DNA of 9,822 nucleotides from a virus (Duplodnaviria; Heunggongvirae; Uroviricota; Caudoviricetes), in IMG/VR virus record IMGVR_UViG_3300015182_000005, one strand, 5' to 3'. The translations under genes and the position numbers were made by a program. Position 1 is the first letter of the stretch; the number at the start of each line of letters is the position of its first letter. The notes beneath the pieces were generated by a model. It was given only the letters and a program-made list of their open reading frames with translations. It was not told the DNA's origin and ran no database searches. Positions 3,101 to 9,822 of the stretch are shown one piece after another.

Positions 3101-3185
3101 GCGAAGCCCGGGAGATCTCTGACTGGAATGACCGGGAGTTTGCCGAGATTTTAATAATCAGTTCACGTAATGTCGCCACACTCAT
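114..3185 (-). CDS. Tail tape measure protein (lambda gpH-like), 1023 aa as it stands; the last 8 codons and the stop are IS-derived, so the native C-terminus is probably missing
   Basis: Long ORF directly downstream of the G/GT chaperone pair. Ala/Gln-rich coiled-coil middle section, hydrophobic glycine-rich segments, and a C-terminal region (NWADSATDYASQ ... GEAGPEAIMPL) resembling the lambda H C-terminal region. Codons 140..117 (VSVNGAPY) and the TGA at 116..114 lie inside the IS terminus. Confidence 0.88.
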   Translation of the reverse strand: MSVATLRELIIKISANSRSFQSEISRASRMGQDYYRTMQNGGQQSAAASREMRRALAEVTDQINTAKSSALNMAGAFAGAFATGHLISLADEWNSVNARLKQASQSSDDFQASQRELMAISQRTGTAFSDNASLFARSAASMREYGYSSEEVLKVTEAISTGLKLSGASTAEASSVIMQFSQALAQGVLRGEEFNSVNENGDRVIRALAAGMGVARKDLKAMADNGKLTADKVVPALISQLGALRDEYAAMPDTVSSSATKVENAFMAWVGGANEASGVTKTLSGVLNGVADNIDTVAAAAGALVAVGVARYFGNMASSAGSATAGLITAARNEVALAEAQLRGTQIATARARAAVYRAQQAVVAARGTERQAAAEAKLTAAQASLTRNIAARTAAQTTLNTVTSVGSRLLSGALGLVGGVPGLVMLGATAWYTMYQNQEQARESARQYAATIDEIRQKTSAMSLPEASDNEEKTRQALDEQNRLIDEQKSKIKSLQEKIAGYQYVLANPGWTTDNGFMINHMTSVKTVTEGLAEATNQLAVEQSRLTQMQGKAQSIQDVLAGLEERRVALIRQQAAEQNKAYQSLLIMNGQHTEFNRLLGLGNELLQQRQGLVNVPLRLPQATLDDKQQTALNNSKRELALSRLKGEARERARLGYAADDLGFVGEAYQTARQNYINNSLDAWRNNQANKPKAHKKTEAEKTEDIYKRLIKQQKEQIALAGQNTELAKMKYQVSQGELSTLSEAQKKTLLQNAALIDQKKIREQLAAYESSLADSNASTRASNDAQLLGYGEGSRMRERLQEMWSIRHEFEQKNNELLRQYQAGEIEEALWKQEKELNKKYLEERLSDQQDYYAKADALRNNWNAGLQEGLTNWADSATDYASQAADAVVSTMDGLVSNISDALAGNVVDWRNWGSSVLREVSKILMNAAIVNGLKSLSGAGGWLGTVGGWISGAVANAKGGVYTSANLSAYSNTIVDTPTYFAFAKGAGLMGEAGPEAIMPLTRAADGSLGVRVSVNGAPY

Positions 3186-3195
3186 TCTCCGGACG

Positions 3196-3217
3196 AAAAA
3201 AAACCGCCGAAGCGGTT
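3196..3217 (-). terminator. Intrinsic-terminator-like hairpin plus U8 between GT and the tape measure gene
   Basis: Minus-strand RNA AACCGCUUCGGCGGUU followed by UUUUUUUU (A-run at + 3196-3203), then CGUCCGGAGA and the ATG at 3185. Confidence 0.55.
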
Positions 3218-3225
3218 ATGTTGAC

Positions 3226-3914
3226 TCACTGAGACACTATTAAAAGCGCGTTTTCCAGTCCGGCAAATGGATCTGAAGCGCCTTCTGTCTGCTCCTTCTC
3301 CCACTGAAGAAGCGCATCATTCAGTGACACTTTGACCCCCTGCGCACCGTAAATAGCTGAAACAATCTGGGCAGCCCGGAAATCAGCCCGTTCGTCCCCC
3401 AGCGGGCTGAACCTGTCAAATTCTGCCCACATCATGATTTCTGATGCGGACATTTCCCGGCGTAACTCTGACAATGTGCGCCCCATCCTGAGCGCCAGCA
3501 TCATCAGAAAACGCATCCCCGGAAGCGCTACTTTTTTTTAACCTCGCCGGCATCACTGATCAGTTCCAGAGACTGCCGAAGAAGCCGCGCATGCACCGGG
3601 CCATACACGGCAATCACCTGTTCACGATCATCCTCTGAAAATACGGGTTGCAGTCCGGTATCACACAGAACATCAATGAACAGTTCAACATCTGCCTCCA
3701 GATTTCGGCGGGCGCGCTCCGCAACGGATAACGGTGTCTCATCATCTTTTGCTTTAACGATCTCCTGCCAGCGCAACCAGGCTTCTGCAGAAGGTTCCCG
3801 TAACACAACCGTTGCTCCCTCCCATTCAGGCACATCAACGGTTTTATGGCGAAACCCCGACATCGTTGCCAGTGCCAGATTACGGATATTTTTAGTCATC
3901 ACATCCATCCTCAT
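3226..3914 (-). CDS. Tail assembly chaperone GT-like fusion made by -1 programmed frameshift (G frame 3914..3531, then -1 frame 3537..3226)
   Basis: G ORF ends ...GEVKKK-stop on the run GTT AAA AAA AAG TAG. The -1 frame is open from 3537 and continues (VALPGMRFLMM...) to TGA at 3226. Position directly upstream of the tape measure gene matches the conserved G/GT arrangement. Confidence 0.7.
3528..3914 (-). CDS. Tail assembly chaperone (lambda gpG-like), 128 aa
   Basis: ORF between the major tail gene and the tape measure gene. Start ATG overlaps the major tail stop (TAATG); an alternative start at 3899 has GAGG 9 nt upstream. Ends in the slippery A-run. Confidence 0.75.
   Translation of the reverse strand: MRMDVMTKNIRNLALATMSGFRHKTVDVPEWEGATVVLREPSAEAWLRWQEIVKAKDDETPLSVAERARRNLEADVELFIDVLCDTGLQPVFSEDDREQVIAVYGPVHARLLRQSLELISDAGEVKKK
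3531..3537 (-). promoter_or_regulatory. -1 ribosomal frameshift slippery heptamer A AAA AAG (the dnaX-type site)
   Basis: Minus strand 3537..3531 = AAAAAAG in the X XXY YYZ register of the G frame, 1 codon before the G stop. The -1 frame downstream is open for more than 100 codons. Confidence 0.65.
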
Positions 3915-4618
3915 TAACTGACGGTTACAGTGCAGGAAGTGGAGGTCACTTTGTTAACCGGGCTCGCTGAATCAGAAATCTCGCAGGTATACGCACCGGC
4001 ATCACCGGATGCTGCTGATGCCTTACTGAACGTTGCCGCCGTCTGTCCGGAAACAGGAGAACCACCTTTTTTCCAGGCATAAGAATAAGGCGGCACACCA
4101 CCCACAGCCTCAACCGCCATTTCAAGTTTCGCTCCGGAAGCAACCCGCAGCGTGCTTTTTAAATCGACCTTCACTTTCAGCTGCTCTGTCGTCAGCACAG
4201 GCTTACCTTTCAGGCGCAGAGAAAACGTTGCAGCCACAACACCATTGGTTCCTGCAGACCAGGTATGCTGACGCACCTCTGCCATAAAGGTAAATCCGTT
4301 GCCTGACGGAAAAATAACTTTAAAGCCATACGTGGTGTCATTGTCATAGGCACTGCGCAACGCGTTCTGGGCAGCATTCAGATAAAAGTTGCCTGACATG
4401 GAAATCTCTGAAGCAGCCCCAAGACCGTTAATATTTTCCTGCTCAACAGAATACAGCGTGGTGACATCAATATCCTGCTTTTGTCCTGCGGTAAACTGCA
4501 CCTCTTTGATTGTACAGCTCAGGCCAAGATAGCTGGCAGAATCCAGGGTTTCTGCTGTTACCGGTGCAGACGAAATCATAATTTTCGTCAGTTGCGAACG
4601 CTCAAAATTAGAGGACAT
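3914..4618 (-). CDS. Major tail protein with C-terminal Ig-like domain, 234 aa
   Basis: Position immediately upstream of the chaperone pair. AGGAG 6 nt before the ATG. C-terminal ~85 aa (GGVPPYSYAWKKGGSPVSGQTAATF...GAYTCEISDSASPV...CTVTVS) has the pattern of phage Ig-like domains. Confidence 0.8.
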   Translation of the reverse strand: MSSNFERSQLTKIMISSAPVTAETLDSASYLGLSCTIKEVQFTAGQKQDIDVTTLYSVEQENINGLGAASEISMSGNFYLNAAQNALRSAYDNDTTYGFKVIFPSGNGFTFMAEVRQHTWSAGTNGVVAATFSLRLKGKPVLTTEQLKVKVDLKSTLRVASGAKLEMAVEAVGGVPPYSYAWKKGGSPVSGQTAATFSKASAASGDAGAYTCEISDSASPVNKVTSTSCTVTVS

Positions 4619-4630
4619 ACTCGTCTCCTG

Positions 4631-4657
4631 AAAATAAAAAAACCCGCCAGCGGCGGG
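4631..4657 (-). terminator. Intrinsic-terminator-like hairpin plus U-tract between the tail completion gene and the major tail gene
   Basis: Minus-strand RNA CCCGCC-GCU-GGCGGG followed by UUUUUUUAUUUU, then CAGGAGACGAGU and the ATG at 4618. Confidence 0.6.
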
Positions 4658-4678
4658 TGGGTAAAATCATTAATGACC

Positions 4679-5023
4679 TCAGGCTATTACCTGGAATTCA
4701 AGCGTGGCTCTGCTCAGACGGGAGTCAGGATCATAACCCTGCGTTTTAGAAATAACGGAGGGTGCCAGTTTTCTTACCGCATCAAGCGCCTGCTCACGAA
4801 TATTATCTGCGTCATCAGGTACTGTCGCCCAGACATCGATCTGCACGGTAATTCTGGATTCAGCCTGCCCATCAAGCACATCAGATACCGTGTCAGACAC
4901 CACAGAAAACACCAGCCACGGCGGAGATACTGCAGGCTTTCCCTCCGTCAGCGGGACCACATAAGGATAAACCTGTCCTCCGGCCAGCTGAGACAACAGG
5001 GAATACAGTGTGCCCTCCCTCAT
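4679..5023 (-). CDS. Tail completion / tail component protein (DUF3168-like), 114 aa
   Basis: Position between the gp10-like gene and the major tail gene; sequence pattern resembles the DUF3168 family by recall. Start overlaps the upstream stop by 4 nt. Confidence 0.6.
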   Translation of the reverse strand: MREGTLYSLLSQLAGGQVYPYVVPLTEGKPAVSPPWLVFSVVSDTVSDVLDGQAESRITVQIDVWATVPDDADNIREQALDAVRKLAPSVISKTQGYDPDSRLSRATLEFQVIA

Positions 5024-5469: not shown

Positions 5470-5804
5470 ACATTCCCCTTCAGGCTGCAGAGTATTTCAA
5501 GCCGGGTAGCGCGTGCATCCGGTATTGGTGGACCTTCTATACCCAGAATGGCCCCTTTAAATGCACCGGTCAGCACTTTCAGACGTGAAGTCGCTGTCAC
5601 ATCGCGCCGGAATCTCATCCAGACTCTGACCGTAGCCTGAGCGGTTTCTGCTCCGCCTGAGATTATCTCCCTCCCGCTGATACCCTTAACTTCTGCCCAT
5701 ACGGTAGCTCCCTCCGTCACCGTCTCCACCGGATGCCCTGACGGAGAGCGGGCGGTGGTGACATTCAGAATAATTACGCGATCACGTAATCTGCCCGCCT
5801 GCAT
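5466..5804 (-). CDS. Head-tail adaptor / head closure protein (Phage_H_T_join-like), 112 aa
   Basis: RLRDRVII...VWAEVKGISGREI...VRVWMRFRRDV... pattern typical of phage head-tail joining proteins. Strong GGAGGAG between the upstream stop and the ATG. Confidence 0.65.
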   Translation of the reverse strand: MQAGRLRDRVIILNVTTARSPSGHPVETVTEGATVWAEVKGISGREIISGGAETAQATVRVWMRFRRDVTATSRLKVLTGAFKGAILGIEGPPIPDARATRLEILCSLKGNV

Positions 5805-5812
5805 GTCTCCTC

Positions 5813-6130
5813 CTACAAAGGAATAAAACGATAAGGCTCCAGCAGAGAAGAAAAACCAAACGGGACTGGTGCCTTACTGACATCTGAGGAATTTTCCCGG
5901 TTTTCGCACCAGTGCCCGACCAGCAACATGAGCGCCAGCAAAACATCATCAGCTATAAGCACCCCTTCAGGATCACCTTCCGGCACCGTCTCCTCATAAA
6001 GCTTACGGTTGATAAAATTTTCTGCCTTGCGGCAGGCAGCCCGGAAATACAGCATCAGTAACTCATCATCAGTTGCATCATCTGTATCAATACGGCACTG
6101 CGCCCTGAGTTTTTCCACTATTGCTGCCAT
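5813..6130 (-). CDS. Head-tail connector protein (phage gp6-like), 105 aa from the ATG at 6130
   Basis: MAAIVEKLRAQCRIDTDDATDDELLMLYFRAA... resembles gp6-like connector N-termini. AGGAG 6 nt upstream of the ATG at 6130. The longer 165-aa ORF in the track would overlap the capsid gene by 104 nt and has no ribosome-binding site. Confidence 0.7.
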   Translation of the reverse strand: MAAIVEKLRAQCRIDTDDATDDELLMLYFRAACRKAENFINRKLYEETVPEGDPEGVLIADDVLLALMLLVGHWCENRENSSDVSKAPVPFGFSSLLEPYRFIPL

Positions 6131-6163
6131 CAGAAACTCCTGCCCGCAACACTGTGCGGGCAT

Positions 6164-6185
6164 AAAAAAACCGCGTCGGCGCGGT
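6164..6185 (-). terminator. Intrinsic-terminator-like hairpin plus U7 immediately downstream of the major capsid gene
   Basis: Minus-strand RNA ACCGCG-CCGA-CGCGGU followed by UUUUUUU. A second hairpin GCCCGCA-CAGUGU-UGCGGGC at 6141-6160 abuts the connector AGGAG. Confidence 0.6.
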
Positions 6186-6206
6186 CTGTAACTGAACAAC
6201 GAGTGG

Positions 6207-7424
6207 TTATTTGCCAGTGAGCGCCTTGATGGCTGCCACATCTTCCAGCACACAGTCAAAACGATGGAAAGCCAGAAATGCCACCTGATCAAACTCAGCA
6301 TAACGCTCAACCAGACGTTTCAGTTCCATATAAGTAACGCGGCGAATGATAAAGCGGTTGAAATCCCCCAGGAAAATGAATTTTTTTCCAGTACCAATCC
6401 CGTCAATAGCCTGATCAATAACATAAGGGATCCCCAGCACAGTAGCCGGCGTACCGCCTGCAATATCCGGCAGCCATAACGGGCGTTTCTGTCCATCCTC
6501 CATCTCTTCAATAGTCTGCAATGTGGCATCATTGAATGCCCAGCGGTATTTCGGCCCACCACGATATGCCGGATCAATGGCATGTTTCAGGGCATTCATT
6601 TCTTTCCAGGTGAAAGCGGCAGAGGCTGCAGTCTGGATGGTTCCCGTCACCGACGCTGCCAGCCCTTTTGGCTGTAACGGTGATCCCGTTCCGGTCCCCT
6701 GAACCAGATATTTTGCCTCTCCACGACCAATACGCTGGGCAATACGGTTTGCCAGATAAGATTCAATATCCACCCCACTGTCCTGGAGCAGCTCATTGGA
6801 CACACGAATTATTTTTGATGACAGCTTTTTAGCCCCCAGAATAGCGGTCCCGAACGTCACATCCTGTTCCGTTGCGGCTGTATTTTCCGCCAGCAGTTCG
6901 CCCTCTTCAGTCGTGCCATCAGACGTTGACCAGGTGATATCCTGCCCGGTTGATGTGGTCAGAAGTTGCGCCACACTGGCAATCCCGCCATAAGCCTTCA
7001 TGGTGTCAATGATTTTGTTACGCATCTGCGTGGGCACCGTATATCCGCCCTGAGAATCCGTTGTTACACTCTGAGCCCGCAGTTCACGCATCAGATTACG
7101 CTCTTCAGCATTCAGTTCTGCAAATCCGGCACGCAGAAAACGGTTAAATGCCGCAGCACGCTTCTCTTCCACCGCCTTTTTCCCGTTCTCCGCCTCATTA
7201 TTCTGGCGCTCTTCCGGCCCGGACTCATCCACATATGCCTGATCCTGACGGCGCAACTCTTCTTCACGGGCGATTTGCTCATCCAGCGCATCCAGCTCAG
7301 CTTTCGCCCTGTTCCACTCAGCCCGTTGCTCATCAGTCCATGCGTTATCACCAATTTTTTCATGCAGTGCACGCATATCCTTTGCAATGGTGTTTCGTTT
7401 TTGCTTCATCTCATGAAGTTTCAT
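6207..7424 (-). CDS. Major capsid protein, HK97 fold, with N-terminal delta (scaffolding) domain, 405 aa
   Basis: Immediately follows the prohead protease with no scaffold gene. First ~115 aa are a highly charged coiled-coil-like region (delta-domain-like), followed by a capsid-like body. Confidence 0.88.
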   Translation of the reverse strand: MKLHEMKQKRNTIAKDMRALHEKIGDNAWTDEQRAEWNRAKAELDALDEQIAREEELRRQDQAYVDESGPEERQNNEAENGKKAVEEKRAAAFNRFLRAGFAELNAEERNLMRELRAQSVTTDSQGGYTVPTQMRNKIIDTMKAYGGIASVAQLLTTSTGQDITWSTSDGTTEEGELLAENTAATEQDVTFGTAILGAKKLSSKIIRVSNELLQDSGVDIESYLANRIAQRIGRGEAKYLVQGTGTGSPLQPKGLAASVTGTIQTAASAAFTWKEMNALKHAIDPAYRGGPKYRWAFNDATLQTIEEMEDGQKRPLWLPDIAGGTPATVLGIPYVIDQAIDGIGTGKKFIFLGDFNRFIIRRVTYMELKRLVERYAEFDQVAFLAFHRFDCVLEDVAAIKALTGK

Positions 7425-8038: not shown

Positions 8039-9257
8039 CGTTCTTTTCCTCTGTGCCTTTCGTATCTTTAAAGTTATTCAACGGATTTGCTGCATTTACG
8101 CTGACCAGCATTTCATCCAGACCGTCAACCGGGTTCATATCCTCAAATGCCCTGGCTTCATTCCGACTCATCCAGCCATCTGTAATGGCAAAGTGATAGA
8201 ACTGCGCACGCTCCTGTGGGGTCCCACGGAGCAACCCCGTGAGGTTAAAACGAACGTAATACCCGGCAGCCCGTTCTGTACGGGTAAACAGGCGACGGTT
8301 AAGCTCCTGCTCCCAGTTCGCAACCCAGGGCATCATCGTGTAGCGAACAAACTGAATCGCCTGCTGCGTAATATTCGAAAATGTGGCTTTTTCCAGGTCA
8401 TTAATCATGTGCGCCGGGACATTAAAAATCCCTGCAATCATCGACCTGTTCAGCTTGGTCATATCAATGATCTGAGCATCCACCGGAGAAACTGTCAGAG
8501 CGCGGTAATCCAGTTGCGCAGGCAACAGCATGGTTTTATTTTCCTGGCTGCGAAGCGCTGTCACCGCCCGCTGCCACATATTTTTAAGCCTGCCCCAGCT
8601 CTGTTCGTTCAGTTCATTTTTCACAGAAATAATACCGGCAGGACGGGCATTACCGTTAAAAAAGGCGCTGGTATACTGCTGGCCACTCATTCCCATACCA
8701 ATGGTTTCAGCATGCTGCATGATCGGGCTCAGTCCCATTTTCTGATTGTTTCCCAGCGCCCTGATATGGATCATGTCGTCCGGACTTACCGCAAATGCAC
8801 CCTCTTCGTTATACACCCCGTAAGTATGACGCCCACCGGTGTTAAGTAACGTGGTTTCCCATGGCATACAGCATTCAAGGCTGGTAACCTCTCCACGACG
8901 ATTACGTTTTACCCACGTATAACCATTGCCCCACCCCAGCACATGACGCTGCTTCAGTTCCCGCCACTTATAGCTGGTCTGCCAGGCATTAGGTTCATCA
9001 TGAACGAGCCAGAACAACGGATGATCGCGTGCAGGCTGAACATGCTCATTCGTTTTTCGCATCACATGCAGGGGCATCTGAGCCACACTGGATGAAATAA
9101 CATAAATACAGGCATAGACAGCAGCCAGCTTCATGGATGTTTCCGGACTGACATACACATCCCGGGCAAAAATATTATCCGTCTCAGCGGCCTCTCCGGT
9201 TACCGGAACCGAGGGATTTTCCAGAGACTCACTGCGAAACAGAGCATCAAGAAGCAT
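8031..9257 (-). CDS. Portal protein (HK97 family), 408 aa
   Basis: Position downstream of the large terminase; size and N-terminal pattern typical of HK97-type portals. AGGAGA 5 nt upstream of the ATG. Confidence 0.85.
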   Translation of the reverse strand: MLLDALFRSESLENPSVPVTGEAAETDNIFARDVYVSPETSMKLAAVYACIYVISSSVAQMPLHVMRKTNEHVQPARDHPLFWLVHDEPNAWQTSYKWRELKQRHVLGWGNGYTWVKRNRRGEVTSLECCMPWETTLLNTGGRHTYGVYNEEGAFAVSPDDMIHIRALGNNQKMGLSPIMQHAETIGMGMSGQQYTSAFFNGNARPAGIISVKNELNEQSWGRLKNMWQRAVTALRSQENKTMLLPAQLDYRALTVSPVDAQIIDMTKLNRSMIAGIFNVPAHMINDLEKATFSNITQQAIQFVRYTMMPWVANWEQELNRRLFTRTERAAGYYVRFNLTGLLRGTPQERAQFYHFAITDGWMSRNEARAFEDMNPVDGLDEMLVSVNAANPLNNFKDTKGTEEKNDE

Positions 9258-9387
9258 GTTTTCTCCTCATGGACACTACCAGTGCATAAAGCAGCAACAA
9301 ACAGCCCGACAGCATCAGAGACGCTGGCAGACCTGCATACAGATAAACGCCAGCAGTGAGCAAACCGAAACCGATCAGCCCGGTCAT
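9247..9387 (-). CDS. Hypothetical 46-aa hydrophobic (two-helix membrane) peptide between terminase and portal
   Basis: ATG at 9387 to TGA at 9247 encodes MTGLIGFGLLTAGVYLYAGLPASLMLSGCLLLLYALVVSMRRKHAS: two hydrophobic stretches, a basic C-terminus, and CTG-rich enterobacterial-like codon use. No clear ribosome-binding site; below the ORF-track size cutoff. Confidence 0.35.
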   Translation of the reverse strand: MTGLIGFGLLTAGVYLYAGLPASLMLSGCLLLLYALVVSMRRKHAS

Positions 9388-9404
9388 ATCAGTAATAAGC
9401 TGTT

Positions 9405-9822
9405 TCACAGAATTAACAGGTCCTCATCAGGATCAAGCGTGGACAGAAAGTCATTCACGCCCCCGCCATTTACCAGAAAGCGGCTCATGGCCGTAAAAAG
9501 CGCAACAGGGCCGTCGATTTTGGCTTCAGGCGTGGATTTATTCGGGAAGATGTTGTCGTTTTTGTCCGGTTTTACCGTAACGTTAGACATCATCCAGTTC
9601 ATGACCGGATGATTGCTGTGATGGAAACGCCCGGCATAAACCAGTGATTCCGTTTCCTTCATGGCCTCTGACAGATTGCGGACCGTCTGCGGAACCTCCA
9701 CCAGCGGTATCCCTTCTTCAGCCAGTGCCAGGCTGAACTGCATTGCGCTCCACGGGTCAAATCCCAGTTCCCTGAGGTTTTCACCGCCAATCCATTCCAG
9801 TAAGTCACTTTTTATCTGAGCA
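9405..9822 (-). CDS. Terminase large subunit, C-terminal part (N-terminus lies outside the window)
   Basis: Frame is open from the window edge to TGA at 9405. C-terminal sequence ...VTVKPDKNDNIFPNKSTPEAKIDGPVALFTAMSRF... matches the conserved KIDG..A end of HK97-type large terminases. The track lists only the part from an internal Met. Confidence 0.82.
   Translation of the reverse strand, partial: AQIKSDLLEWIGGENLRELGFDPWSAMQFSLALAEEGIPLVEVPQTVRNLSEAMKETESLVYAGRFHHSNHPVMNWMMSNVTVKPDKNDNIFPNKSTPEAKIDGPVALFTAMSRFLVNGGGVNDFLSTLDPDEDLLIL

What the first reader, a model, noticed from the sequence alone, without database searches (positions are those of the whole stretch)
6131..6206. Terminator-like hairpin after the capsid gene, plus a second hairpin abutting the connector ribosome-binding site
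This 76-nt gap is the longest spacer in an operon whose other junctions overlap or are 8-14 nt. It holds a canonical hairpin plus U7 (6164-6185) and a second 7-bp-stem hairpin (6141-6160) that ends right at the AGGAG of the connector gene. This is the point where required copy number drops from hundreds (capsid) to about 12 (connector), so the structures could set that ratio by partial termination, translational attenuation, or 3'-end stabilisation of the capsid mRNA.
Basis: partly seen in the sequence, partly recalled or inferred. Interest (0 to 1): 0.45.

Follow-up and report, generated by a model that had tools for sequence, protein, structure and literature searches.

The report
Terminator plus ribosome-site hairpin after capsid gene
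The gap between the capsid gene and the head-tail connector gene of this E. coli lambdoid prophage holds a textbook transcription terminator followed by a second hairpin touching the next gene's ribosome-binding site; the pair is real and conserved, but it is a familiar kind of phage late-operon punctuation, not a new system.

Summary
Both hairpins exist on the minus (coding) strand. T1 is 6187-6168 with a U7 tract at 6170-6164. H2 is 6162-6141 and ends in the A of AGGAG; the connector ATG is at 6130. Each folds far better than shuffles (z = -4.0 and -5.4). The same T1-U7-H2-SD layout occurs in 44 distinct sequences from about 20 Enterobacterales genera and phage SfV. There the stop-to-T1 spacer and the H2 loop drift freely, while the stems and U-tract hold and three H2 pairs covary. 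SfV's GenBank record already annotates its copy of T1 as a rho-independent terminator.

Two more canonical terminators sit in 60-nt and 40-nt gaps, one directly before the high-copy major tail gene. A near-identical phage (Evi) carries a Q antiterminator.

So partial termination is unlikely to set the capsid:connector ratio. The likelier picture is that T1 stops unmodified polymerase and caps the capsid mRNA, while H2 dampens connector translation by blocking the standby site. In most relatives, but not in this allele, H2 also clamps the U-tract onto the SD. The module is also a recombination joint between head and neck modules. The finding is ordinary and of modest interest.

The parts
6207..7424 (-). 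HK97-type major capsid gene (405 aa); the upstream cistron
   Evidence: Pfam PF05065, E = 2e-70. 100% identical to the capsid of phage Evi.
6188..6206 (-). Spacer between the capsid stop codon and T1, not conserved
   Evidence: In relatives its sequence is unrelated; the stop-to-U-tract distance ranges 32-46 nt. In this allele it can pair with the connector start region (15.8 cross pairs against 8.6 +/- 4.2 in spacer shuffles), but that pairing is not conserved.
6168..6187 (-). T1: intrinsic-terminator hairpin AGACCGCG-CCGA-CGCGGUUU
   Evidence: Terminator scans. -11.2 kcal/mol, z = -4.0. The core CCGC/GCGG is invariant or nearly so in 44 distinct homologues, with GNRA or UUCG-type loops. The homologous site is annotated as a terminator in SfV, U82619.2 5547-5584.
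6164..6170 (-). U7 tract of T1
   Evidence: 6-8 U in all 25 homologues; the extremes seen in the further variants are 5 and 8. In most relatives, but not in this allele, it is predicted to pair with the connector SD as an extension of H2.
6141..6162 (-). H2: 8-bp GC-rich hairpin UGCCCGCA-CAGUGU-UGCGGGCA, ending in the first base of the SD
   Evidence: -18.5 kcal/mol, z = -5.4. 93.5% of H2 cells are paired across 44 distinct sequences, and 3 pairs carry compensatory changes; the whole structure is 96.1% paired against 26-48% in slid controls. Loop length ranges from 4 to 16 nt. Among close variants all 4 substitutions fall in the loop.
6137..6141 (-). Shine-Dalgarno AGGAG of the connector gene, 6 nt before the ATG
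   Evidence: Read directly from the sequence. The distance from the H2 3' end to the SD is -1 to +2 nt in 36 of the 39 homologues; the other three (-2, -2, -4) are rows where the automated pick did not land on a recognisable SD.
5813..6130 (-). gp6-like head-tail connector (adaptor) gene, 105 aa; the downstream cistron
   Evidence: Pfam PF05135, E = 2.3e-12. RefSeq annotates the same 318-nt CDS.
6107..6139 (-). H3 (weak evidence): predicted pairing of the SD/spacer GAGUUU (6139-6134) with codons 7-8, AAACUC (6112-6107)
   Evidence: Pair probabilities 0.53-0.98 across the six pairs (0.92-0.98 for four of them) in a fold running from T1 to about ATG+23. In a longer context the SD opening energy is only about 2 kcal/mol. 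Conservation was not tested.
4636..4658 (-). Second intra-operon terminator (ACCCGCC-GCU-GGCGGGU + U7), directly upstream of the major tail gene's SD
   Evidence: -12.6 kcal/mol.
3196..3217 (-). Third intra-operon terminator (AACCGC-UUCG-GCGGUU + U8), between tail chaperone T and the tape-measure gene
   Evidence: -8.5 kcal/mol.

Best explanation
The gap holds two RNA elements in the late mRNA of a Q-antiterminated lambdoid prophage.

T1 (hairpin plus U7) is a genuine intrinsic terminator by every sequence criterion. Late transcription in this phage type is carried out by Q-modified RNA polymerase, which reads through such sites. T1 therefore probably does not meter transcription between capsid and connector. 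It would instead (a) stop polymerases that lack Q, such as stray transcription in the lysogen, and (b) once folded in read-through RNA, act as a 3'-exonuclease barrier that prolongs the life of the capsid segment.

H2 follows the U-tract directly and ends in the first base of the connector's AGGAG. It leaves no single-stranded standby site upstream of a strong SD, which should lower translation initiation of the 12-copy connector relative to the roughly 415-copy capsid. In most relatives H2 also acts as a clamp that lays the U-tract opposite the purine-rich SD (U-A and U.G pairs, like a fourU element). In this window's allele that extension is broken by an A.G mismatch, and only the standby-site effect, and perhaps H3, remains.

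What is shown: the structures, their statistics, their conservation and covariation, the Q gene in a near-identical phage, and the other terminators. What is inferred: every functional step (termination, read-through, stabilisation, translational damping).
For: Structure and statistics.

Conservation: the T1-U7-H2-SD layout is found in relatives with 66-79% capsid identity from about 20 genera, while the stop-to-T1 spacer and the H2 loop vary freely.

Covariation: 96% of cells paired, 3 H2 pairs with double-sided changes, slid controls 26-48%.

A hairpin stronger than any of 10 capsid-CDS control windows follows the capsid stop in 23 of 27 non-Enterobacterales relatives, many without a U-run. 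This favours a hairpin (stability) role older than the terminator role.

Q antiterminator in phage Evi, which is 99.5-100% identical over this region, plus further sense-strand terminators downstream of Q.

A terminator lies directly before the high-copy major tail gene.

H2 abuts the SD in essentially all 39 homologues.

Replacing the U-tract with A's in silico lowers the median SD opening energy from 4.1 to 1.5 kcal/mol (Wilcoxon p = 2.5e-11).

Literature: structured standby sites can change initiation more than 100-fold (PMC3936740). Intra-late-operon terminators after the procapsid module are known, their roles are called unknown, and partial termination or stopping of non-antiterminated transcripts have been proposed (PMC8022706). 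SfV annotates the homologous terminator.
Against: There is no experimental read-out of any kind.

In this window's own allele the U-tract:SD pairing is not predicted (1.95 against 2.19 kcal/mol, pair probability about 0.01). The SD-only opening energy of the connector (2.3 kcal/mol) also falls within the range of the other ten genes (2.0-10.3). Translational damping here therefore rests on the standby-site argument alone.

The strict conservation of a perfect U-tract argues that real termination matters, which a pure stabiliser would not need.

A U-rich tract brought next to the SD could instead recruit ribosomal protein S1 and enhance translation.

The window itself does not contain the Q gene. 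Its presence is inferred from near-identical phages.

The homologues are related by descent, so counts of conserved cells overstate independent support.
Confidence: 0.5

Rival explanations
1. Leaky terminator as a stoichiometry valve. T1 terminates a fixed fraction of late transcripts, so downstream neck and tail genes get less mRNA than the capsid gene, as with T7 T-phi after gene 10.
For: T1 has a canonical terminator architecture and a conserved perfect U-tract. Terminators immediately after the major capsid gene are described for T7 and LUZ100 (PMC10134795), and leaky terminators are widely used by phages (PMC9163698). The required copy number does fall about 35-fold at this junction (own knowledge of HK97 virions).
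Against: A Q antiterminator is present in near-identical phages, and Q-modified polymerase is terminator-resistant (established for lambda, 82 and 21; also stated in PMC3851460 and PMC8022706). An equally good terminator precedes the major tail gene, which needs more copies than the four genes upstream of it. Many distant relatives keep the hairpin but have no U-tract.
Confidence: 0.2
2. Processing and segmental stability module. RNase E cuts the single-stranded U-rich linker between the two hairpins. T1 then protects the 3' end of the capsid segment, and H2 forms a 5' stem-loop that sets the decay rate of the downstream segment. The two halves thus acquire different half-lives, as in the papBA, malEFG or puf operons.
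For: Two stable hairpins flank an 8-nt U7A linker, which fits the AU-rich single-strand preference of RNase E (the enzyme preference is own knowledge). Hairpins without a U-tract occur after the capsid gene in distant relatives. The adjacency of the U-tract and H2 is invariant.
Against: No cleavage data exist. A 5' hairpin would stabilise, not destabilise, the low-copy downstream segment. The model does not explain why H2 must abut the SD.
Confidence: 0.25
3. Module-boundary linker. The T1-U7-H2 stretch is conserved mainly because it serves as short shared homology for recombination between head modules and neck/tail modules. Its RNA structure would be incidental.
For: L114 is 98-100% identical to the window up to GCGGGCA and then matches SfV. 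Partial matches in E. coli genomes stop at query position 100 (= 6141, the H2 3' end) or start at 72 (= 6169, the U-tract). The same H2 and connector follow three different capsid lineages (100%, 67% and 24% identity), each with its own terminator fused at the U-tract.
Against: Compensatory changes in H2, free loop variation with intact stems, and the fixed U-tract all indicate selection on the fold. Surviving joints are expected at any gene boundary whatever the mechanism. The shared stretch is only about 20-45 nt.
Confidence: 0.15
4. Translational enhancer. H2 brings the U-tract next to the SD, so ribosomal protein S1 binds the U-run and raises, rather than lowers, connector translation after the loss of translational coupling across a 76-nt gap.
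For: U-rich tracts upstream of an SD are known S1 targets (own knowledge; S1's role on structured mRNAs is covered in PMC3858243). The geometry is conserved.
Against: In most relatives the U-tract is predicted to be base-paired to the SD itself. The connector is a low-copy protein and already has a consensus AGGAG.
Confidence: 0.1

Closest known systems
Putative rho-independent terminator annotated after capsid gene orf5 of Shigella phage SfV (U82619.2, 5547-5584)
   Same: It is the homologous site. The capsid is 68.6% identical, and the order is the same: T1 (CCGC..GCGG), U7, GUG-CCCGCG..CGCGGG-CAC hairpin, AGGAGG, ATG.
   Different: The SfV annotation names only a terminator; its span 5547-5584 covers T1, the U-tract and most of H2 and overlaps the orf6 start. 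The second hairpin is not described as such. SfV's H2 extends into a U-tract:SD helix, which the window allele lacks. The downstream connector is a different subtype (47% identity).
[quoted passage not shown]
   Same: It is an intrinsic terminator inside a single-promoter, antiterminated late operon, just after the head-shell genes. The authors offer the same candidate roles and say the role is unknown.
   Different: The capsid family (P22-type) and sequence are unrelated. No SD-abutting second hairpin is reported.
T7 T-phi, and the LUZ100 terminator immediately downstream of the major capsid gene (PMC10134795)
   Same: A terminator is placed directly after the most abundant structural gene, and leakiness lets downstream genes be expressed.
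   Different: Those act on a phage single-subunit RNA polymerase with a dedicated promoter in front of the capsid gene. Here the host polymerase is presumably Q-modified and there is no local promoter (one search finds none in the gap).
fourU RNA thermometers (PMC3185406, PMC10586365)
   Same: In most relatives a run of U's pairs with the purines of the SD inside a hairpin stem.
   Different: The U's here are the terminator's own U-tract, and the element is intercistronic, not in a 5' UTR. There is no Rfam match. The pairing is not predicted in this window's allele. Temperature response is untested.
Structured standby sites upstream of the SD (PMC3936740)
   Same: A tall hairpin directly 5' of the SD, with almost no proximal single-stranded RNA, is the configuration that study found to depress initiation.
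   Different: Those were synthetic 5' UTRs. No measurement exists for this natural intercistronic site.

Membership tests
Intrinsic (rho-independent) terminator | GC-rich stem of at least 5 bp with a 3-8 nt loop, on the transcribed strand, downstream of a stop codon | tested here: met
   8-bp stem (5 G-C pairs), loop CCGA, starting 19 nt after the capsid stop, on the sense strand.
Intrinsic (rho-independent) terminator | Uninterrupted U-tract immediately 3' of the stem | tested here: met
   U7 at 6170-6164. It is 6-8 U in all 25 homologues; the further variants range from 5 to 8.
Intrinsic (rho-independent) terminator | More frequent than chance, and strand-specific | tested here: met
   3 on the sense strand, 0 on the antisense strand, against a shuffle mean of 0.125.
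Intrinsic (rho-independent) terminator | Releases transcripts in vitro or in vivo | not testable with these tools
   Needs Term-seq, Northern analysis or in-vitro transcription with and without Q.
fourU-type SD-sequestering hairpin | At least four consecutive U's base-paired to the SD in the dominant fold | tested here: not met
   In the window the pair probability of U6164-6167 with G6140-G6137 is about 0.01, and replacing the U-tract with A's does not change SD opening. It is met in silico in most relatives (median 4.1 against 1.5 kcal/mol).
fourU-type SD-sequestering hairpin | Match to the Rfam FourU model, or location in a 5' UTR | tested here: not met
   No Rfam hit at E <= 10 apart from noise. 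The element is intercistronic.
fourU-type SD-sequestering hairpin | Temperature-dependent opening that controls translation | not testable with these tools
   Needs reporter assays or structure probing at several temperatures.
Lambdoid nut (boxA + boxB) or HK022 put antitermination sites | A boxA consensus upstream of a 5-bp hairpin with a conserved GNRA-like pentaloop, located just downstream of an early promoter | tested here: not met
   No boxA-like match near the gap; there are 6 one-mismatch hits elsewhere in the window, which equals chance. The H2 loop varies in sequence and in length from 4 to 16 nt. The location is mid late operon.
RNase III processing site (T7 R-site type) | Roughly 20 bp of near-continuous duplex | tested here: not met
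   H2 is 8 bp in the window. Only a few relatives with expanded H2 reach about 20 bp.
Known Rfam cis-regulatory RNA or sRNA | Score at or above a family's gathering threshold | tested here: not met
   The best hits are 10-21 bits against thresholds of 37-54 bits.

The most novel reading that the evidence does not exclude
The T1-U7-H2-SD cassette could be a dual-use device in which one U-tract serves two purposes. For polymerase without Q it is the release signal of a terminator. In read-through (Q-modified) transcripts, H2 clamps the same U-tract onto the purine-rich SD of the connector gene as a universal anti-SD (U pairs with both A and G), giving a fourU-like and possibly temperature-sensitive brake on a 12-copy protein. 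Because the cassette is short and conserved, it would also act as the portable joint at which head and neck/tail modules are exchanged among Enterobacterales prophages. A related oddity is that RUGCC follows the U-tract of many unrelated phage terminators (12 independent cases among 164 unselected sites). This hints at an unrecognised downstream context preference of terminators.
Probability: 0.25. Interest if true: 0.55.

Novelty: new member of a known kind. Interest (0 to 1): 0.33.

Why it matters
Phage late operons must make hundreds of copies of some proteins and a dozen of others from one long transcript. How that is achieved is only partly understood; a phage L genome paper (PMC8022706) states that the roles of intra-operon terminators 'are not known'.

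This locus offers a compact test case present in 713 of 5426 complete E. coli genomes, including the ST131 reference strain EC958. It has natural allelic variation: alleles with and without the U-tract:SD clamp, and three different capsid and terminator partners. That variation could separate transcriptional, stability and translational contributions.

The practical value is modest. The site is a natural insulator/attenuator part, and it marks the head/neck module boundary in prophage annotation. It does not reveal a new mechanism.

Tried and rejected
1. A known RNA family. Rfam was searched over the whole window and, permissively, over 6050-6300. Only sub-threshold noise came back, including weak isrK hits that simply match terminator hairpins.

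2. A conserved closing stem between the stop-to-T1 spacer and the connector start region, forming a three-way junction. It is predicted in the window (15.8 cross pairs against 8.6 +/- 4.2), but across 24 relatives it is not above spacer-shuffle controls. Rejected as a general feature.

3. A bidirectional terminator. On the plus strand neither hairpin is followed by a T-run.

4. A promoter in the gap. There are no sigma-70-like hits in 6131-6206, and the H2 loop, where a -10 element would have to sit, is not conserved.

5. A nut/boxB-like or put-like antitermination site. There is no boxA and the loop is variable.

6. An upstream in-frame start at AUG 6163. It is in frame in this allele only, has no SD, and is out of frame in relatives.

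7. Specificity of the cassette to this capsid family. The pattern GCGGTTTTTTTRTGCCYG hit at least 120 viral contigs, of which only 26 follow this capsid. Covariance-model hits of 35-42 bits in other gene contexts (L079, L171, L158, L071, L103) show terminator-plus-hairpin pairs elsewhere. Simple 'terminator then small hairpin' arrangements are therefore generic.

8. SD occlusion as exceptional within the operon. The SD-only opening energy of the connector is unremarkable. The large value for positions -18 to +12 (22 kcal/mol, the highest of 11 genes) merely reflects the inclusion of H2's 3' arm.

9. The SfV genome paper (J Bacteriol 2002, PMC134923) could not be read. Only its GenBank annotation is cited.

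Full report
**What is there**

All genes in the window run on the minus strand and form a standard HK97-type morphogenesis operon:
- terminase large subunit, C-terminal end
- portal, 9257-8031
- S78 protease, 8038-7439
- major capsid, 7424-6207
- gp6-like connector/adaptor, 6130-5813
- head closure, 5804-5466
- gp10-like, 5469-5020
- tail completion, 5023-4679
- major tail protein with an Ig-like domain, 4618-3914
- tail chaperones G and T
- tape measure, 3185-114

The window is 99.5-100% identical over this region to Escherichia phage Evi and several vB_EcoS prophage-derived records. The 141 nt around the gap occur in 713 of 5426 complete E. coli genomes, including EC958.

**The observation**

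The capsid-connector gap (6206-6131, 76 nt) reads on the coding strand as follows:
- UAA, the capsid stop codon
- a 19-nt spacer
- T1: AGACCGCG-CCGA-CGCGGUUU, 6187-6168
- U7, 6170-6164
- A
- H2: UGCCCGCA-CAGUGU-UGCGGGCA, 6162-6141
- GGAG, 6140-6137
- UUUCUG
- AUG, 6130

T1 folds at -11.2 kcal/mol (z = -4.0) and H2 at -18.5 kcal/mol (z = -5.4). In each case 0 of 200 shuffles fold as well.

With a strict terminator definition the sense strand has three sites and the antisense strand none, against 0.125 expected from shuffles.

The statement that all other junctions overlap or are 8-14 nt is wrong. The three strict terminators occupy the three longest gaps, of 76, 60 and 40 nt. The second sits just before the major tail gene and the third just before the tape-measure gene.

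**Conservation**

A scan of one genome per species with the capsid protein returned 62 loci. In the Enterobacterales relatives, with 66-79% capsid identity, the same layout recurs. These include Symbiopectobacterium, Mangrovibacter, Citrobacter, Kosakonia, Atlantibacter, Kluyvera, Buttiauxella, Rosenbergiella, Lonsdalea, Serratia, Phytobacter, Morganella, Proteus, Mixta and Rouxiella, plus Klebsiella phage Kp4877-4 and Shigella phage SfV. The layout is a variable spacer, T1 (CCGC-loop-GCGG), U6-8, RUG-CCYG...CRGG-CAY, the SD, then ATG.

The stop-to-T1 spacer is unrelated in sequence and varies in length (the stop-to-U-tract distance is 32-46 nt). The H2 loop varies from 4 to 16 nt and in several lineages forms its own extension helix capped by GUAA.

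On a covariance-model alignment of 44 distinct sequences, 96% of cells are paired, against 26-48% in slid controls. Three H2 pairs show changes on both sides, in 20 cells. The T1 core is invariant, so it is uninformative for covariation.

Among near-identical E. coli variants, all four substitutions in H2 fall in the loop.

Further out (48-64% capsid identity: Pasteurellaceae, Marinobacter, Aeromonas, Idiomarina, Pandoraea, and even an Acidobacteriota MAG), 23 of 27 loci keep a single hairpin right after the capsid stop that is stronger than any of ten control windows in the capsid CDS. Many of these lack a U-run, and none has an H2.

A post-capsid hairpin is therefore an old positional feature of this capsid family. 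The terminator-grade U-tract plus H2 is the Enterobacterales elaboration.

**Already noticed by others**

The SfV GenBank record annotates the homologous site as a 'putative rho-independent terminator'.

[quoted passage not shown] It suggests partial termination, or stopping of transcripts that lack gp23/gp24 antitermination (PMC8022706).

T7 and LUZ100 have strong terminators right after the capsid gene (PMC10134795). Leaky terminators are common in phage transcriptomes (PMC9163698).

**Does T1 meter transcription?**

Phage Evi encodes a Q antiterminator (PF03589, E = 7e-51). Several further sense-strand terminators lie downstream of Q in its late region. SfV-like phages are likewise described as Q-dependent (PMC3851460).

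It is established for lambda, 82 and 21 that Q-loaded polymerase ignores intrinsic terminators for tens of kilobases (own knowledge).

An equally canonical terminator lies immediately upstream of the major tail gene, which needs far more copies than the four neck and tail-completion genes before it. If these sites removed a large share of transcripts, the stoichiometry would be wrong.

It is not excluded, because the strictly kept perfect U-tract shows that real termination is under selection in some situation. That situation is most simply transcription by unmodified polymerase in the lysogen or early in infection.

**What does H2 do?**

Its loop is free and its stem is constrained. It always starts 0-2 nt after the U-tract, and it ends -1 to +2 nt from the SD in all rows where the SD was reliably identified.

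Folding the whole junction in 24 relatives showed that the minimum-energy structure usually extends H2 downward, so that the terminator's U-tract pairs with the SD through U-A and U.G pairs.

Quantitatively, in 39 unique junctions the median energy needed to open the SD 5-mer is 4.1 kcal/mol. It falls to 1.5 when the U-tract is replaced in silico with A's (Wilcoxon p = 2.5e-11). This resembles fourU thermometers, where UUUU pairs with AGGA (PMC3185406).

The window's own allele is an exception. A6163 faces G6140, the U:SD pair probability is about 0.01, and the U-to-A replacement changes nothing (1.95 against 2.19 kcal/mol). Here the SD/spacer GAGUUU can instead pair with codons 7-8 (H3). That pairing has high probability in a short context but is only about 2 kcal/mol in a longer one.

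The connector's SD-only opening energy (2.3 kcal/mol) is also not unusual within the operon, where the range is 2.0-10.3.

What holds for every allele is that a tall hairpin abuts a consensus SD and leaves no proximal single-stranded standby site. That configuration was shown with synthetic leaders to lower initiation by up to two orders of magnitude (PMC3936740). This is the basis for proposing translational damping. It remains an inference.

**A recombination joint**

L114 is 98-100% identical to the window through the capsid, T1 and H2 up to GCGGGCA. From there on it matches SfV, with a connector only 47% identical to the window's.

In E. coli genomes, partial matches to the 141-nt query either end at position 100 (= 6141, the last base of H2) or begin at position 72 (= 6169, in the U-tract).

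In strain M15 and 20 IMG/VR contigs, an HK97-type capsid only about 24% identical to the window's carries its own terminator, with the UAA stop codon in the loop. That terminator is fused at the U-tract to an identical or near-identical H2 and connector gene (96-100% protein identity). A 67%-identical capsid is joined in the same way.

The cassette is thus the seam between head and neck/tail modules. Whether the short shared sequence promotes the exchange, or simply marks where exchanges are tolerated, cannot be decided here.

**A side observation**

The pattern GCGGTTTTTTTRTGCCYG hit at least 120 viral contigs, of which only 26 follow this capsid.

Among 167 unique terminator-like sites in the held loci that were not selected by that pattern, 15 are followed by RUGCC. 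Twelve of these are independent of the capsid junction. About 0.4 would be expected under uniform base usage.

Part of H2's conserved 5' arm may therefore reflect a general downstream context of terminators in these phages. The sample is biased by how the loci were fetched.

**Verdict**

The finding is a real, conserved, statistically solid pair of RNA hairpins.
- T1 meets every sequence criterion for an intrinsic terminator, and its homologue has been annotated as one in SfV's GenBank record (the genome paper dates from 2002).
- H2 is a lineage-specific companion whose best-supported role is to restrict ribosome access to the connector SD.
- In most relatives H2 also borrows the terminator's U-tract as an anti-SD.

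This is a new member of a known kind, with a mildly novel twist (dual use of the U-tract, and the cassette as a module seam) that needs experiments. Interest is about 0.33.

Noticed in passing
window 4636-4658 (-) and 3196-3217 (-): Two further canonical intrinsic terminators lie inside the same operon. Each sits immediately upstream of the next gene's SD: one before the major tail gene (60-nt gap) and one before the tape-measure gene (40-nt gap). Neither has an H2-like second hairpin.
   Followed up: partly
window 3531-3537 (-), with the G stop codon at 3530-3528 and the T frame continuing to 3226: The tail assembly chaperone pair G/T has a textbook -1 frameshift site. The slippery sequence is A AAA AAG, inside a run of 8 A's just before the G stop codon, and the T ORF (PF06223) lies in the -1 frame.
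   Followed up: partly
L114 (IMGVR_UViG_2541047694_000003) 4372-4435; L186 (E. coli M15) 1560-1680; E. coli hits H146-H153: Mosaic joints fall exactly in the cassette. One is at GCGGGCA, the 3' arm of H2, where a window-type capsid meets an SfV-type connector. Another is at the U-tract, where a capsid only 24% identical, with its stop codon in its terminator loop, meets the window-type H2 and connector. In H146 an IS66-family element follows the truncated gap.
   Followed up: partly
loci L001-L185, terminator-like sites: RUGCC directly after the U-tract is over-represented among terminators not selected for it. There are 15 such sites among 167, 12 of them independent of the capsid junction, against about 0.4 expected. 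It often appears as U7-AUGCCUGGAG-N6-AUG, where GCCUGGAG supplies the next gene's SD. This may be a downstream context preference of terminators in these phages; the sample is biased.
   Followed up: partly
window 4637-4699 (-) and 6164-6233 (-): Weak sub-threshold Rfam hits to the Salmonella prophage sRNA IsrK (21 and 10.8 bits against a 50-bit threshold) overlap two of the terminators. They most likely reflect only the terminator hairpin and U-tail in that model.
   Followed up: no
window 3181-3191 (-): The listed ATG start of the tape-measure ORF (3185) lies only 2 nt after GGAG. A GTG at 3179, about 8 nt after the SD, is a more plausible start.
   Followed up: no
L001 (phage Evi) 21931-22686: Evi's annotated major tail CDS starts upstream of, and runs through, the terminator homologous to window 4658-4642. 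The deposited start codon is probably too far upstream.
   Followed up: no
window 9247-9408 (-): A 53-aa ORF overlaps both the terminase end and the portal start. It is annotated as a hypothetical protein at the same place in Evi, and its function is unknown.
   Followed up: no
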